Below are positions 24,001 through 30,000 of a stretch of 64,000 bases of DNA, piece after piece. How positions within the stretch are numbered: the stretch's first letter is position 1; each line of letters begins with the position of its first letter. The position numbers were made by a program. The stretch lies in the NCBI RefSeq assembly GCF_045037415.1, contig NZ_CP173440.1; one strand, given 5' to 3'. This stretch comes from Escherichia coli. GTDB taxonomy: Bacteria > Pseudomonadota > Gammaproteobacteria > Enterobacterales > Enterobacteriaceae.

Positions 24001-27000
24001 GCTGGTACTAAGGAAGGGAGATATCGAAATACCTTCCGATCTCGCGGGCGTACTCTATACCGAGCTTGATGAGCATGGTGGATGGAAACGCAAGCTGCTG
24101 AGTGAGCTGACGTATGCCGGTGTTCCTTTTGACAAGGAAAAAGCGTTAAGCGCCTGATCCACTTATTGAGTAATAAAAAGGCCGCCAGGCGGCCTTTTTA
24201 TCAGATCAGTCGTCATTTCCCAGTGCACTTTTGAGTTCTTCCTGCTCCGGCGTCAGCTCGTTGCCGGACAGCATAACCTTCAGCTTCTCTTCGACTGCTG
24301 ACCAGTCATCAAAGAACGGACTGACCTGGTCACGCGCAATCCGGCGATATGCCCCTCTGTGAGAGCTGAAGACACTGGTCTGTAATCGTATCAACAGGTT
24401 AACGAGGCCTTCATCAGTGGCAGTTACTTCTCTGACCCATTGCTTCACGGCTTCATCTGAACTCATGTCTCTCCAGGCGTAGAGATACCCGAGAATTGAC
24501 TGGCGCAGGAGAAGTTGTTGCTTAAGTTCTGGCTGACTCATGCGTTCAGCAAATCTGTCACGCAACCGTTCCGTAATATCGCGACTGAAAAGAGCGTCTG
24601 AAGGGGAAGGTACTGCATTTTGAGCAAGACCGTGTTCCCAGATAAGATCCCGCATAAAATCGGCTATCCAGAACGGCGAAGCGCCAGTAACAATCAGCTT
24701 TTCCATCTGCGTGACTGTTCTGGTTCTCATCAATATTCTGCATATGCTTCAGCAGATGCCGTACAACCTGATTAATGCCAGTTTCACGCAGGGAAAACCA
24801 TGTGTTACGGATCCGGAAGCGAGTGCTGACCTCATCCGTGTGATCGAAGAAAAACTGAATCAACCCAGCACACTCTTCGAAATTACGTTCCTTAATCAGC
24901 CCCGGTGTCAGCCTGCTTAGTATATGTTCGAACCAGGTTCCGGACAGACTACCCACACTGTTGATTTTTGAAAGGAGCTTTTCAGAGAGCTGCTGCTGGT
25001 TTTCCGGTACGCCTGCCTGCTTAAAAAGCTCATTAAAGAAATCAGTGGGCAGAACATTCTGGGGTGAGGAGAAGGCATAATAATATCGCCAGTGCGTCAG
25101 ACTGCTGAGTCGTTTACCGGTCGTCTGGATATGACGAAAATCCTCACTGACGGGCTCAAAGAGATTCAGATGTGCATCATCATGTCCGCTGATACCGGGG
25201 AGCCAGTCTGCAAGCGTCAGAAACGAGTCTGCATTGGATGCCCTGAACGTCTTCATAGACCTTATAAGCTCCTCCCGGAAGTCTGCCTTTTCTCGGTCAG
25301 AAAGCATGCCCTGGCCGGTTTCAATCACGGACCGTTCTGTCAGGTAATGCTCTGTCCAGTCATACAGGGCCGGGTTTGTCACCCGGATAAGCTGGAGTAG
25401 GCACAAATCAGGGAAATACACAAAATCCCGCATCCCCGGATACAGAAAAATCAGGGAATTAATCGCCTGATGGATCTCCCGTGGCGTCGAAAGTGCGCCA
25501 CCATACGTATCCGTCACCGCGGCGAGATCCCCTGACATTCCAGAGTCTGGCGGTTGATTATTAATTTGCTGATACAGCGCCTCAGCCCGCTGGCGAAATT
25601 CATTGCGTAAATCAAAGGCTTCAGGCCGGGGTAATTTAAAACTGAGCTGAATGATTTTCTGCAGGTAACGGCTGCCATCTTCTATATTCAGCGCATACTC
25701 AACGGCATGAGTGATAATCTGCCTGTCATAACAGAGAATATGGGTAAAGCGGGGCAGATCGGCTACAGCCCTCACCAGTCTGAACACTTCAGCAATCTGG
25801 GAAGGTTCAAGTCGATCAAGGTCATCCATAACGACGATGAATTTCAGATCCAGAGTAACCAGTTGTTTCGCAATTTCAGCCCGCAGTTTTGTTGTCGTTT
25901 TTTGATCAACTGCGAGACGACTCTCGGTAAATACTTTTATCCCGCCTGCTATCCAGTTAATGATGCTGGAAAACTGCCCGATATACTGAACCAGCGGAAG
26001 AACGCGCGATGAAGTATCCTGAGCATACTCAATCACTTTCTGAGCTTCTGGTGACAACAGATATTTACGCCAGAACTTTTTGAAGCCCTTCGGAGGATAG
26101 CGTTTTTCCATTTCCTGCTGAATAACCGTGGCAACAGGAAGAAAGAGCGCTTCAACCGGATCACTGCCACTCAGCCATGGGGAAACATGCAGTACATGCG
26201 TGTGTCCATCCTTGTGCTGAAAAAGACTTTTCAGTATCAGATTCAGAAGGCTTGTTTTACCTGAGCCCCATGCTCCTTCAATTCCGATCACATTTGAAGC
26301 TTCCTGTGGAAGGGAAAGAATGGATCGGGAGATATTTTCTGCAATATTTCTGAAGCCATATCGATCCTCAGGTACATTCTCAACTGCCGCATCAAGCCCT
26401 TTCTGGTTCCACAGTTGCCTCAGTATTTTCATATTACAGATCTCCGTAAAGGCCGCGCAGCCCGGTCAGGGCCTCCGCCAGCGTACCTTCCGCACATCGC
26501 GTGGTAAGCTCCCGGACCAGCGTCTCAAAGGCCTCCGCCGGTAAAAAAATCCGCAGGCCGTCGATACCGAAAAATCCCTCTTTTGATACATGCCCGGGCG
26601 GGGAGAACATCACACGCGCCCCTTGGTGACCGTGCGCCAGGGCTTCCGGATGGCGGGAATACAGCGTGAACAGGCCCAGCAGTTCGTAGAACGCCTCCCA
26701 GCCGTACGGCACCACGAAGTCCTGGCCGGTGATCAGCAGGTGCAGACGGGGCGTGGTGTACCAGGCCCCCGGGCGTTCTCCGGGGGGCTGGCCGTCAATG
26801 CGGATATCAAGGCGCAGGGTGCCGGCCCCGATGGTTTCCGTTACGGCAGAAATAACCGGGCGCAGCTCCTGCGCCAGAGCGGTGGCCTTCTGTTCTGTCC
26901 AGCCCAGCCCGCGCAGGACCAGAGGGAATATGGTCTTCAGCCGCGGCAGGGTGAAAATTTCAGACAGGTTAGCGTCGGGAATGTCAGCCAGCTCAAAACA

Positions 27001-30000
27001 GTCGCTCTCCAGCGGACGCAAAAGATGCTCGGCATACATCTGATCCACGACCGGGCGCAGCGCTGCCCGGAACCGGTCAAACTCTTCCATCCAGTTTTCG
27101 CCGGCCAGGCGGAAGATCCCCTTCAGGTAGTGGTCATCCACCGGACGGTCATGCTCCACCTGCTAGGCCAGCAGGTCACGGGTGATGTCGAGCAGCGTGC
27201 CCAGGGCCGGCAGGGTTGCCAGCCTGTTATGCCCGCGCAGGAAGGCCTCCCTGGTATGAACCAGCATAAAGCGCAGCTCGTCGCGGGAGAGCACTGACGT
27301 GCCGAAGGTCTGGCCGAGAATGATATGCCGGTACACAAAGCGTTATTGTCGTCTCAGCACAATTCACACGCGTCGTGTACGCTAAGCCTTCATTTTGCTC
27401 AGCACAGGACCGCGATCTTATGTTGGTGACTATGACAGACAAAGAACTCAGTCGGATCAACATCATTCAGTCAGTTATTGAAAAGCGCATGCGTCGTCGC
27501 GATGCTGCTCATCAGCTTGCTTTGACCGAATGTCAGACACAGCGTTTGATTGATGATCAGCACTACAGTGAGTCCATAAAACGGTCGTTTTATGGAGACT
27601 GACAATTAATTGCGAAACCATTAACTAGGTAATGGAAGTTGAGTGGTGTATTTTATTTCCTCCATGGAAAAACTGGATGTTACATCACTCAATCCGCTTA
27701 CTGAGCTGACCAGCTTTTTGTAAAAACTATCGTAACCCTTCATATCTGAAACCACTACCTGAAGAAGATAATCATATTCTCCCGTGGTACGGAAAAAAGT
27801 CATCACTTCTGGCATACTATTGACCTGCGAAACGAAATGTTTATACCAGTCATGGCTGTGGTTTTGTGTTTTTATCATCACGAAGGCTGTAAGCGACAAG
27901 TTAAGCTTATCCTTACTCAACAGAGCAACCCGACCAGTGATGATCCCCTCATCTTCAAGACGTTTTATGCGCTTCCAGCAAGGATTCGGCGTTAAATCGA
28001 CAGCCGCTGCCAGGTCCTGTAGACACAGTGTACAGTCATGTTGTAACAGCCTGAGCAGCTCCTTATCTTTCTTATCCAGCATAACCGCCCCTTCTGATGG
28101 AGAATATTTTTCTCTAAAAGTATAAAATAAAAGTGAAGAAAACAATATTTTTCTCCCGTTAAAAAGTTAAATTAATTTCTTTTACTGGGAGTATCTTATG
28201 CGCAGAGTGACGATATTGGTATTATTCCTGCTGGTTTCACTGACCTGGGGGACCACATGGCTGGCTATGCGGATAGCCGCTGAAACTATCCCTCCGGTGT
28301 TTGCAACCGGGATGAGGTTTATGTTTGCAGCTCCATTCTTAATCGGCATTGCATGGTTAAGAAAAACACCGCTTTTATTTCCACGCGGACAACGCTTGTT
28401 CCAGCTTGTAATTTGTATTTTTTATTTTGCCATTCCTTTCTCATTAATGATTTATGGTGAAACATATGTCAGCTCCGGGCTTGCCTCCATTATATTTTCA
28501 AACATGCCTGTGGCTGTTTTGATTGCATCAGTTTTGTTTTTGAATGAAAAAACAAACTCAATGCAGATTGCGGGTTTAACTATCGCAATAGTGGCACTGG
28601 CGGGCATTCTTCTCGAAGAAACGAAAACAAGCACAGAGACCCAATGGCAGGGAATCATTGCGCTTGTTTCAGCCGTAATCATCCATGCCATAATATATAC
28701 TCAATGCAAGAAAAGAAGCTGTGCTGTCTCTGTTATAACGTTTAATGCGCTCCCGTGCTTTCTGGCAGGATTGTTACTTTCTGCGGCAGGATGGTTCTTC
28801 GAAAGACCACTGGTGTCAGCCTTCTCAGCACACTCAATATTAGCTACCCTGTATCTCGGTGCTTTTGCCGGGGTTTTTGGGATATTGTGCTACTTTGCAC
28901 TTCAGCAAAAGGCCAGTGCCTTTCAGGCTTCACTTGTATTCCTTATTTTTCCTCTGATTGCGGTAAGCCTGGAAAGCTATGTATATGGATATGCAATTTC
29001 AACTCAATCAATGCTCTTTATTATACCGTTAGTTGCCGGGATATTTCTTACTCTTTTCTCACGGCGAGTGTCTGCAACCAACAAACATCGGGATTGCTCA
29101 CCACAAACAAATAATGGTATTCATGAGCATACTGAGACTTCCTGAGGATTTAAAGAAAAGGCTTTCGTTTTCAGTTAATGTGGGTCGGTTGAAATGAGGG
29201 TTAGCTGCCGATACCAGTGAGGGATAGAAAGGGATCACCTACCTATCCCTTCACCCTTGTATCTAACAGTTTGTGGTGATTAGCTACCACCACTGAAGCT
29301 GAGTGAGCCGCCCCCTTCACTTAAGGTCAGAAAAGCCAGCACCGCTGAACCTTGATTTGCAGCATATGGCCCTCCGCTTCACCTTTCACGCCAGCACATC
29401 AGGTTGAACGGTTACCGGGAGCTCGACTCCGTATGTACAAGGCGAACAGGCGTGACGGTTTATGTGAGAGGAGTTTGACCATGTTTCCAGTCGGCATTGA
29501 CGTAAGTAAAAACACCCTTGATCTTTGCATACTGTATGACGGTATCAAAGGACGCATAAAAACCCGTAACATCCAAAATAACAGACATTCAGTTGAAAAT
29601 ATTCTTCGCTGGCTCAGGCTCCAGCACTGCGGTCCTGAGGATGTTCATGTTGTGATGGAAGCTACCGGTGTTTATCACGAACGGCTGGCCACTGAGTTAC
29701 ATGATGCCGGTTTCCGGGTTTCTCTGGCCAACCCTCACCGCAGTCGGGAGTTTGCACGCGGCATGGGAATAATGACAAAGACGGATAAGGTGGATGCGTA
29801 TATGCTTGCCTGTTACGCATTCCTTAAGAAGCCACACCACTGGGAGCCGCCGTCCCCCGAAATCAGATATCTCGCTGCACTCCTGCGACGGCGTGATGTT
29901 CTGCTGGGTGATGCCCTGCGTGAGGAGAACAGGCTGGAAAAATACCTGTCGACAGACACACCTGCAGATATTATCAGTTCCTGCAGGCGTATGGCGCAGC

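What the first reader, a model, noticed from the sequence alone, without database searches (positions are those of the whole stretch)
24206..27159. Two-gene operon ending in a KAP-family P-loop NTPase whose reading frame breaks about 570 codons in
An unrecognisable 241-aa ORF (26434-27159, GTG start) stops 1 nt before the ATG of a KAP NTPase (Walker A GAWGSGKTSLLN, Walker B FIVVMDDLDRL). The KAP ORF's last ~55 codons look non-protein-like (Cys/Trp/Ser-rich), while a protein-like frame (TQMEKLIVTGASPFWIADFMRDLIWEHGL...) continues from about 24733 to 24206. This is either a real frameshift (inactivated gene), an assembly error, or two overlapping genes. The operon is GC-rich relative to its AT-rich flanks, suggesting separate acquisition.
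Basis: seen in the sequence. Interest (0 to 1): 0.55.

Follow-up and report, generated by a model that had tools for sequence, protein, structure and literature searches.

The report
pifC–pifA operon with spurious frameshift
This is the well-known pifC–pifA phage-exclusion operon of F-type plasmids, sitting on a Klebsiella virulence plasmid, and the break in the pifA reading frame is one extra base that is most probably a sequencing error at a methylated GGTCTC site, not a real gene inactivation.

Summary
A 624-aa KAP NTPase ORF (24558-26432, -) goes out of frame after codon 569, and its true C-terminus continues in ORF 24206-24733. The gene is pifA, the F-plasmid abortive-infection gene against phage T7. 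The "unrecognisable" 241-aa ORF is the remnant of its repressor gene pifC, which has lost about 62 N-terminal codons and carries a TGG>TAG nonsense codon.

The break is a single extra T at 24724/24725 (GGTCTC>GGTTCTC). Removing it restores a 741-codon pifA identical in nucleotides to the intact gene of sister plasmids. The insertion occurs in 0 of 591 PLSDB plasmids and 0 of 20 E. coli records, and the truncated product is on one contig against at least 1000 for the intact one.

Across 63.5 kb, the window has six private differences from near-identical plasmids. Five lie in GGTCTC/GAGACC and all touch the inner C (P about 5e-14). Three of them frameshift genes, and two identical +T insertions share the context GGTCTCATC. 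That C is the base methylated by M2.Eco31I, a system found in E. coli, and the source record is labelled E. coli.

Verdict: a known operon. The pifC decay is real. The pifA frameshift is very probably a base-calling artefact. Low interest.

The parts
24726..26432 (-). pifA codons 1-569, in frame. This segment holds the KAP-family P-loop NTPase domain with Walker A (GAWGSGKT) and Walker B (FIVVMDDLD).
   Evidence: PADLOC PifA model positions 2-556, E 2e-240. Pfam KAP_NTPase covers residues 27-331, E 5e-43. The nucleotide sequence is identical to the intact pifA of L001.
24722..24728 (+). GGTTCTC, a GGTCTC (Eco31I/BsaI) site carrying one extra T at 24724 or 24725. This single base is the frameshift.
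   Evidence: It is the only indel against L001, L004, L006 and L007 in this gene. The allele is in 0/591 plasmids and 0/20 E. coli records. Deleting one base restores a pifA 100% identical to L001.
24206..24724 (-). pifA codons 570-741 plus the stop codon. This is the true C-terminal part, now in the +1-shifted frame.
   Evidence: PADLOC PifA model positions 552-718, E 6e-45. dN/dS against F pifA is 0.15 for this segment.
24558..24725 (-). Out-of-frame tail of 55 codons plus a stop. It is a by-product of the extra base and not a real coding sequence.
   Evidence: Translation comparison with intact PifA.
26434..27335 (-). pifC remnant, corresponding to F PifC residues about 61/63-362. About 62 N-terminal codons, the start codon and the upstream promoter/operator region are missing.
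   Evidence: PGAP annotates sister plasmids as 'transcriptional repressor PifC, incomplete, missing N-terminus'. Protein alignment to F PifC. DNA homology to F begins at about 27335.
27163..27165 (-). TAG nonsense codon in the pifC remnant (TGG in most relatives; C>T at 27164 on the + strand).
   Evidence: The TAG allele is shared by 52 of 591 plasmids, so it is a real lineage marker.
6156..6161 (+). Companion discrepancy at the same motif: GGTCTC>GGTTCC in iucA, giving S364P.
10118..10123 (+). Companion discrepancy at the same motif: GGTCTC>GGTTTC in iucD, synonymous.
32018..32022 (-). Companion discrepancy at the same motif: GAGACC>GAACC, which is loss of the inner C on the motif strand. It frameshifts the cupin gene 31808-32335.
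   Evidence: The allele is in 0/591 plasmids.
58808..58814 (+). Companion discrepancy at the same motif: GGTCTC>GGTTCTC. It is the same +T in the same GGTCTCATC context as in pifA, and it frameshifts the InaA-family kinase gene 57927-59426.
   Evidence: The allele is in 0/1046 plasmids.

Best explanation
The locus is the pifC-pifA operon (phage inhibition by F) carried on a Klebsiella pneumoniae IncFIB/IncHI1B-type hybrid virulence plasmid. PifA is a 741-aa KAP-family P-loop NTPase. On the F plasmid it aborts T7 infection when it senses phage gp1.2 and gp10, and it causes membrane depolarisation and nucleotide leakage. This mechanism is taken from the literature and was not tested here. PifC is its autorepressor. 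In this plasmid lineage pifC is a genuine pseudogene, with a 5' deletion and, in this sub-lineage, an added TAG codon, while pifA is intact.

The frame break in the window is one extra T inside a GGTCTC site. I infer that it is a base-calling or consensus artefact. The plasmid was probably sequenced from an E. coli host whose Eco31I-type methylase makes GGT(m5C)TC. A long-read base-caller or polisher not trained on that modification would then mis-call the modified cytosine at 5 of the 14 sites in this window. That produces three spurious frameshifts (pifA, a cupin gene, a kinase gene) and two substitution events.

Shown: the identity of the genes, the exact lesion, its uniqueness, and the motif restriction. 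Inferred: the methylation and the sequencing platform.
For: Gene identity: PADLOC PifA E 2e-240 and 6e-45, covering model positions 2-718 across the two ORFs. Pfam KAP_NTPase. The repaired protein is 91.4% identical to F-plasmid PifA and sits in the same gene order, with a 1-nt pifC-pifA spacing and the TIR gene pair as neighbours. RefSeq annotation of sister plasmids agrees.

The lesion: a single +T at 24724/24725. Removing it gives a pifA 100% nucleotide-identical to L001.

Uniqueness: 0/591 PLSDB plasmids and 0/20 complete E. coli records. The exact truncated product is on 1 contig, from NCBI only and from no short-read Logan assembly, while the intact product is on at least 1000 contigs.

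Motif restriction: over 63,543 aligned bases, the window has 6 private events against three near-identical plasmids. Five are in GGTCTC/GAGACC and one is in a C homopolymer. Five of 14 sites are hit, with binomial P = 5e-14. All five involve the fourth base, C. The two +T insertions share the 9-mer GGTCTCATC. No discrepancy falls at any of the 253 GATC or 177 CCWGG sites. The other two frameshift alleles are also unique, at 0/591 and 0/1046.

Literature: M2.Eco31I methylates the inner cytosine, GGT(m5C)TC. The system is chromosomal in E. coli ST131 EC958 and methylates its plasmid fully (PMC4659465; PMC3526304). It is also present in E. coli ATCC 25922 (PMC12679398). Strain-specific methylation motifs cause systematic nanopore consensus errors in K. 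pneumoniae and other species (PMC11610573; PMC11610603). The only record with the truncated protein is labelled E. coli.
Against: I could not see the reads, the sequencing platform or the host chromosome, so neither the methylation nor the technology is demonstrated. The papers I read describe methylation-induced errors mainly as substitutions or ambiguous bases, whereas three of the five events here are single-base indels. Nine of the 14 GGTCTC sites are called correctly, one of them in a context similar to an altered site (GGTCTCgcg at 23705 against 10118). The C>T at 10121 is also what genuine 5mC deamination would give.
Confidence: 0.85

Rival explanations
1. The +1 insertion is a real, private mutation. 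In this one isolate pifA has been inactivated, leaving a truncated PifA of 569 native residues plus 55 junk residues. This would continue the decay of a pif operon whose repressor gene is already dead.
For: The operon is demonstrably decaying in this lineage. pifC carries a 5' deletion in all Klebsiella-lineage copies and a TAG codon in 52/591. The native promoter region is gone and no sigma70-like site lies upstream on the coding strand. Other split or truncated pifA products exist in public data, at 382, 543, 569, 666 and 678 aa, and L003 has a split pifA.
Against: It does not explain why 5 of the 6 private differences in 63.5 kb fall on the same base of the same hexamer (P 5e-14). It does not explain why an identical +T appears in the identical 9-mer 34 kb away in an unrelated gene. 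It does not explain why three unrelated genes are frameshifted at this motif with alleles seen nowhere else. The intact allele is otherwise fixed and under purifying selection, with dN/dS 0.13.
Confidence: 0.08
2. The five changes are real site-loss mutations, selected because the plasmid entered an Eco31I-restricting E. coli host. Alternatively they result from mutagenesis at the methylated cytosine, such as 5mC deamination.
For: All five events destroy the Eco31I recognition site. The one C>T change (10121) has the form of a 5mC deamination product. The record is from E. coli, where Eco31I systems occur.
Against: Once a plasmid copy is methylated in the new host, there is no continuing selection for site loss. 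Nine of 14 sites remain, so restriction would not be escaped anyway. Site loss could occur at any of six positions, yet all events hit the methylated C. Deamination cannot create a +T, a -C or a TC>CT swap. Selection would not favour frameshifts in three genes. Eco31I cuts outside its site (PMC4659465), so break repair would scar the flank and not base 4.
Confidence: 0.04
3. The two ORFs are separate, naturally overlapping genes, or pifA is expressed by programmed ribosomal frameshifting.
For: Only the appearance in this window: two long ORFs that overlap by 176 nt.
Against: F-plasmid PifA and the sister-plasmid copies fetched here are continuous 741-aa proteins without the extra base. At the frameshift site itself, 591/591 plasmids lack the extra base. 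One HMM spans both ORFs colinearly. The 55-codon tail has no homologue.
Confidence: 0.01

Closest known systems
PifA of the E. coli F plasmid (WP_000698737.1, NC_002483 42445-44670), the abortive-infection protein behind F exclusion of phage T7
   Same: Same length once the extra base is removed (741 aa), with 91.4% amino-acid and 90% nucleotide identity. It has the same KAP P-loop domain, the same position directly after pifC with 1-nt spacing, and the same convergent TIR gene pair downstream.
   Different: It sits on a Klebsiella virulence/hybrid plasmid instead of F. Its repressor gene and native promoter/operator region are destroyed, so how it is regulated and whether it is expressed are unknown. 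As written in the window, the ORF is split after codon 569. Activity against T7-like phages has not been tested for this allele.
PifC (also called RepC) of the F plasmid (WP_000952217.1, 362 aa), autorepressor of the pif operon
   Same: Residues 61-362 align colinearly at high identity, with dN/dS 0.25.
   Different: The first ~62 codons, the start codon and the upstream DNA are missing. The missing part includes the N-terminal 43 residues, the only segment with any Pfam similarity (weak DUF6364). There is also a premature TAG at 27163-27165. It is a pseudogene and not an unknown 241-aa protein.
Intact pifA of pLVPK/pK2044-type Klebsiella virulence plasmids (WP_004215174.1)
   Same: The nucleotide sequence is identical except for the one extra base.
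   Different: Only the extra T at 24724/24725.
Methylation-induced systematic consensus errors in nanopore assemblies (Lohde et al. 2024, PMC11610573; Liu et al. 2024, PMC11610603)
   Same: The errors are confined to one short motif, centred on the modified base, specific to the strain, and absent from independent assemblies. Dam and Dcm sites, which the models handle, are unaffected.
   Different: The motif here is GGT(m5C)TC (Eco31I type). The nanopore-error papers I read (PMC11610573, PMC11610603) do not list it as an error motif, although PMC12679398 reports it as a methylation motif. Three of the five events are indels, not the purine/pyrimidine ambiguities emphasised in those papers. The platform is not verified.

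Membership tests
PifA (F-plasmid Pif abortive-infection system; PADLOC PDLC02361) | End-to-end similarity to the PifA profile and to F PifA | tested here: met
   Model positions 2-556 (E 2e-240) and 552-718 (E 6e-45) over the two ORFs. The repaired protein is 91.4% identical to F PifA.
PifA (F-plasmid Pif abortive-infection system; PADLOC PDLC02361) | KAP-family P-loop NTPase domain with Walker A and Walker B | tested here: met
   Pfam PF07693, residues 27-331, E 5e-43. GAWGSGKT and VVMDDLD are visible in the translation.
PifA (F-plasmid Pif abortive-infection system; PADLOC PDLC02361) | Single continuous ORF of about 741 codons | tested here: not met
   In the window as written, the frame breaks after codon 569. 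The feature is met after removing one base, and it is met in the sister-plasmid copies fetched; at the frameshift site 591/591 plasmids lack the extra base.
PifA (F-plasmid Pif abortive-infection system; PADLOC PDLC02361) | Operon position immediately downstream of pifC | tested here: met
   The pifC stop codon at 26434-26436 and the pifA ATG at 26432 give the same 1-nt spacing as in F.
PifA (F-plasmid Pif abortive-infection system; PADLOC PDLC02361) | Excludes phage T7 through gp1.2/gp10 sensing, with membrane leakage | not testable with these tools
   Known for F PifA only (PMC8594841; PMC13001434).
PifC transcriptional repressor | Full-length 362-aa protein with its N-terminal region and start codon | tested here: not met
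   Homology starts at F codon ~61-63. PGAP notes 'missing N-terminus'.
PifC transcriptional repressor | Uninterrupted reading frame | tested here: not met
   TGG>TAG at 27163-27165. The allele is in 52/591 plasmids.
PifC transcriptional repressor | Sequence homology over the remaining body | tested here: met
   302 codons align colinearly with F PifC.
Methylation-associated base-calling artefact | Discrepancies restricted to one motif and centred on the modified base | tested here: met
   Five of 6 private events lie in GGTCTC, all at C4, P 5e-14. C4 is the M2.Eco31I target.
Methylation-associated base-calling artefact | Variant alleles absent from independent assemblies of the same element | tested here: met
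   0/591, 0/591 and 0/1046 plasmids, and 0/20 E. coli records. The truncated product is on 1 contig only.
Methylation-associated base-calling artefact | The same extended sequence context gives the same error | tested here: met
   GGTCTCATC>GGTTCTCATC at both 24722 and 58808.
Methylation-associated base-calling artefact | The host encodes a methylase for the motif, and the assembly derives from unpolished long reads | not testable with these tools
   The only facts available are that the record is labelled E. coli and that Eco31I systems occur in E. coli. No methylase gene is annotated in the plasmid regions that align to the window.
Programmed ribosomal frameshift or overlapping genes | The frameshift site is conserved in homologues | tested here: not met
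   No homologue carries the extra base.

The most novel reading that the evidence does not exclude
The most novel reading still open concerns the intact gene and not the frameshift. On Klebsiella virulence plasmids a PifA orthologue has been kept intact and under purifying selection (dN/dS 0.13, at least 1000 contigs), even though its repressor gene pifC and native promoter region are destroyed. This suggests a de-repressed or re-wired PifA, perhaps transcribed by read-through from the upstream Lrp/AsnC gene. It might protect hypervirulent Klebsiella against T7-like phages, possibly together with the conserved neighbouring TIR gene pair (PDC-S35). A second, less likely reading is that the five GGTCTC changes are real and reflect mutagenesis or selection at Eco31I-methylated cytosines after transfer into E. 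coli.
Probability: 0.12. Interest if true: 0.45.

Novelty: already known. Interest (0 to 1): 0.12.

Why it matters
Biologically it matters little. The pif operon has been known since the 1980s, and this copy is a known RefSeq protein plus one stray base.

The practical value is in data quality. This public record probably contains motif-specific errors at GGT(m5C)TC that create at least three false pseudogenes and one false amino-acid change (IucA S364P) within 64 kb. Counts of pseudogenes, defence systems (PifA would be scored as broken) and SNP distances taken from this assembly would be misleading. The same signature should recur at roughly one third of GGTCTC sites across the whole genome.

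It also corrects two annotations. The 241-aa "hypothetical protein" is a pifC remnant. The label "exclusion suppressor FxsA" that several records give to PifA is a misnomer.

Tried and rejected
1. NCBIfam scan of the seven local proteins gave only sub-threshold hits for PifA (QatA, 40 bits against a cut-off of 600) and nothing for the 241-aa ORF or the C-terminal ORF. PADLOC and the record annotations were what identified them.

2. Pfam on full-length PifC gave only a weak DUF6364 hit at residues 1-43, so no DNA-binding domain could be assigned.

3. The look-up of encoding contigs for the exact 624-aa product returned nothing, so I could not recover the source record, its sample or its platform. 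The source is also absent from the E. coli genomes and plasmids collections.

4. The accession AP001918.1 for the F plasmid was not held. NC_002483.1 worked.

5. The promoter scan found no sigma70-like site on the coding strand between 24000 and 27800, and terminator-like hits were at chance level. pifA expression therefore remains unresolved.

6. Literature searches found no paper naming GGTCTC as a nanopore error motif, and the listed hits of the PifA/Klebsiella virulence-plasmid search did not mention PifA.

7. Considered and rejected: programmed frameshifting or overlapping genes (homologues lack the extra base), a homopolymer slippage error (the context is T to TT, not a run), and Golden-Gate-style BsaI domestication of a construct (it would not use indels, and 9 of 14 sites remain).

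8. I did not use the structure-prediction, large protein-search or collection-scan tools, because the identity was settled by near-identical annotated records.

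
Full report
**1. What is in the sequence**

- A 241-aa ORF (26434-27159, minus strand, GTG start) ends one nucleotide before the ATG of a 624-aa ORF (24558-26432, minus strand).
- The 624-aa ORF carries Walker A (GAWGSGKTSLLN) and Walker B (FIVVMDDLDRL).
- A third ORF (24206-24733, minus strand) overlaps the end of the second in another frame and reads like protein.
- Pfam places a KAP-family P-loop domain at residues 27-331 (E 5e-43).

**2. Identity of the genes**

PADLOC's PifA model has 720 positions. 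It matches the 624-aa ORF at positions 2-556 (E 2e-240) and the 175-aa ORF at positions 552-718 (E 6e-45). The two ORFs are therefore one gene interrupted by a frameshift.

A megablast against complete E. coli genomes found the region on 446 records, almost all of them plasmids. These are annotated as [quoted passage not shown].

The classical F plasmid (NC_002483) has the same arrangement:
- a small gene followed by a TIR-domain gene, convergent with pifA;
- pifA of 741 aa (WP_000698737.1);
- pifC of 362 aa (WP_000952217.1) upstream of pifA, with 1-nt spacing.

The locus is therefore the pif ("phage inhibition by F") operon.

According to the literature, F PifA is a KAP-family NTPase (KAP stands for Kidins220/ARMS and PifA). 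It aborts T7 infection, is triggered through T7 gp1.2 and gp10, and causes membrane depolarisation and nucleotide leakage (PMC8594841; PMC13001434, citing Schmitt 1991 and Cheng 2004). That mechanism is taken from those papers and was not tested here.

**3. The upstream 241-aa ORF is a pifC remnant**

RefSeq annotates the equivalent stretch in sister plasmids as [quoted passage not shown].
- The translated frame aligns colinearly with F PifC residues 61-362.
- DNA homology to F starts abruptly at about window 27335, near F codon 63. About 62 codons, the start codon and the upstream control region are gone.
- The window also has C>T at 27164, which is TGG>TAG on the coding strand, two codons upstream of the GTG taken as the start.
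- The TAG allele is shared by 52 of 591 related plasmids, mostly large hybrid plasmids of 240-430 kb. It is a genuine lineage marker.

pifC is therefore a real pseudogene hit twice, and not an unknown partner protein.

**4. Source context**

The window is 99.98% identical to Klebsiella pneumoniae IncFIB/IncHI1B-type hybrid virulence plasmids such as NZ_CP117741.1. These carry iucABCD-iutA, a DMT transporter, the ter operon and IS26/TnAs1. In these and in pLVPK/pK2044-type plasmids, pifA is an intact 2,226-nt gene encoding WP_004215174.1.

**5. The frameshift**

Over 24100-27300 the window differs from the intact reference L001 at only two positions, the TAG change and one extra T at 24724/24725.
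- On the coding strand, GAG-ACC becomes GAG-AAC-C directly after codon 569. The last 55 codons of the 624-aa ORF are out of frame, and the true codons 570-741 lie in 24206-24724.
- Deleting one base gives a pifA identical in nucleotides to L001.
- The repaired protein is 91.4% identical to F PifA. dN/dS is 0.13 overall and 0.15 for the C-terminal 172 codons, so the tail is a conserved, functional part of the protein.

This excludes "two overlapping genes" and programmed frameshifting.

**6. Real mutation or error?**

*Uniqueness.* A 61-nt query across the site matched 591 plasmids, all in the 95-99% identity band, and every listed row was 60/61 over a 60-base span. None carries the insertion. 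The same held for 20 E. coli records. In the 15-billion-protein collection, the exact 624-aa product occurs on a single contig of 353,276 bp. That contig is NCBI-only, is labelled Escherichia coli, and is not among the short-read Logan assemblies. The intact 741-aa product occurs on at least 1000 contigs.

*Pattern of differences.* I aligned the window to three near-identical plasmids over 63,543 bases. Six events are private to the window.

| Window position | Change | Effect |
|---|---|---|
| 6159-60 | GGTCTC>GGTTCC | iucA S364P |
| 10121 | GGTCTC>GGTTTC | iucD, synonymous |
| 24724 | GGTCTC>GGTTCTC | pifA frameshift |
| 32019 | GAGACC>GAACC (GGTCTC>GGTTC on the motif strand) | cupin gene split |
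| 58810 | GGTCTC>GGTTCTC | InaA-family kinase gene split |
| 19299 | C6>C5 homopolymer | not assessed |

- Five of the six events lie in GGTCTC, and five of the 14 sites in the region are hit. The binomial probability is 5e-14.
- All five involve the fourth base, the inner C.
- The two +T insertions occur in the same 9-mer, GGTCTCATC.
- None of the 253 GATC or 177 CCWGG sites is affected.
- The other two frameshift alleles are also unique to this window, at 0/591 and 0/1046 plasmids.

*Cause.* GGTCTC is the Eco31I/BsaI site. M2.Eco31I methylates its inner cytosine, giving GGT(m5C)TC, and M1.Eco31I methylates GAG(m6A)CC (PMC4659465; PMC3526304). An identical system is chromosomal in E. coli ST131 strain EC958, whose plasmid is fully methylated at the motif. 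The motif is also methylated in E. coli ATCC 25922 (PMC12679398). Strain-specific methylation motifs that the base-caller was not trained on are a documented source of systematic nanopore consensus errors, in K. pneumoniae among others (PMC11610573; PMC11610603).

The source record is an E. coli carrying this Klebsiella plasmid. The most economical account is that an Eco31I-type methylase modified the plasmid and the consensus was mis-called at a subset of the sites. I put this at about 0.85.

*Caveats.* I could not see the reads, the platform or the host chromosome. The papers I read stress substitutions more than indels. Nine sites were called correctly.

**7. Rivals**

- A genuine private +1 mutation (about 0.08) fits the general decay of the operon, but it cannot explain the motif restriction or the identical insertion 34 kb away.
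- Real Eco31I site-loss or 5mC-driven mutagenesis (about 0.04) is unlikely. Nine sites remain, selection ceases once the plasmid is methylated, deamination cannot make indels, and Eco31I cuts outside its site.
- Overlapping genes or recoding (about 0.01) is refuted by the homologues.

**8. Composition claim**

Only the pifC remnant is GC-rich (62.9%). pifA is 48.6% GC, against a window mean of 51.0% and flanks of 41-42%. F shows the same 48/63% pattern. The block is an old, shared module of F-type plasmids and not a recent island.

**9. Expression of the intact gene in this lineage**

The native promoter region is deleted, and no sigma70-like site lies on the coding strand in 24000-27800. The Lrp/AsnC gene (27621-28082, minus strand) lies upstream in the same orientation, so read-through from it is possible, but that is only an inference. 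The listed hits of the literature search on PifA in Klebsiella virulence plasmids did not mention PifA.

**10. Verdict**

The system is already known: it is the F-type pifC-pifA operon, with a genuinely decayed pifC. The pifA break is most probably a sequencing artefact at a methylated motif. Interest is low, and the main value is as a data-quality flag for the source assembly.

Noticed in passing
window 22978-23268 (+) and 23258-24157 (+): A small 96-aa gene overlaps the start of a TIR-domain protein. The TIR protein matches PADLOC candidate system PDC-S35 (E 8e-66) and gives weak Cap12/TIR-effector hits. The pair lies convergent to pifA here, on the classical F plasmid (41216-42395) and in all Klebsiella relatives, so TIR pair, pifA and pifC form a conserved four-gene block.
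   Followed up: partly
window 31808-32335 (break at 32018-32022): The cupin-domain gene (175 aa in sister plasmids) is split into 31808-32038 and 32125-32334 by loss of one base in a GAGACC site. The allele is in 0/591 plasmids.
   Followed up: yes
window 57927-59426 (break at 58808-58814): The InaA-family kinase gene of the ter-associated cluster (499 aa in sister plasmids) is split by the same GGTCTCATC>GGTTCTCATC insertion as pifA. The allele is in 0/1046 plasmids.
   Followed up: yes
window 6159-6160 and 10121: There are substitutions at two further GGTCTC sites in the aerobactin genes: iucA S364P (GGTCTC>GGTTCC) and a synonymous change in iucD (GGTCTC>GGTTTC). They are probably the same artefact, though the iucD C>T could also be real 5mC deamination.
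   Followed up: yes
window 19299 and about 18281: A C6>C5 homopolymer deletion at 19299 is private to the window. A long poly-C tract near 18281 differs by one C between the reference plasmids themselves.
   Followed up: no
window 20988-22121 (+) and 22137-22430 (+): A DUF3800 protein (377 aa) and a 97-aa ORF sit between vapBC and the TIR pair in this lineage. The 97-aa ORF gives a weak hit to a VC1465-family Xer activation factor and is called korC in one record. pLVPK-derived L001 has HNH-endonuclease and GGDEF genes there instead, so this is a variable spot next to the pif block.
   Followed up: partly
window 27336-27620, including the small ORF at 27420-27602 (+): This sequence at the pifC deletion junction has no homology to F. 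The 60-aa ORF (WP_004225020.1) reads like the N-terminal helix-turn-helix of a transposase. That is my own impression and is untested. It may mark the event that truncated pifC.
   Followed up: no
records CP031369.2, CP034201.2, CP041024.1 and cluster names: Several GenBank and UniRef entries name PifA 'exclusion suppressor FxsA'. From my own knowledge, FxsA is a different, host-encoded protein that suppresses F exclusion, so this looks like a propagated misannotation.
   Followed up: no
L003 (NZ_CP068707.1) 1107-3332, equivalent to window 24206-26432: Another E. coli transconjugant record has pifA annotated as two CDSs (1332 nt and 861 nt). The cause is an A>T change at the position equivalent to window 25572, so it is an independent disruption or error at a different site.
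   Followed up: partly
window 63642-64000: Identity to NZ_CP117741.1 ends just past an IS26 copy (about 62885-63589). The window continues into different DNA, as expected at an IS26-mediated junction in these mosaic plasmids.
   Followed up: no
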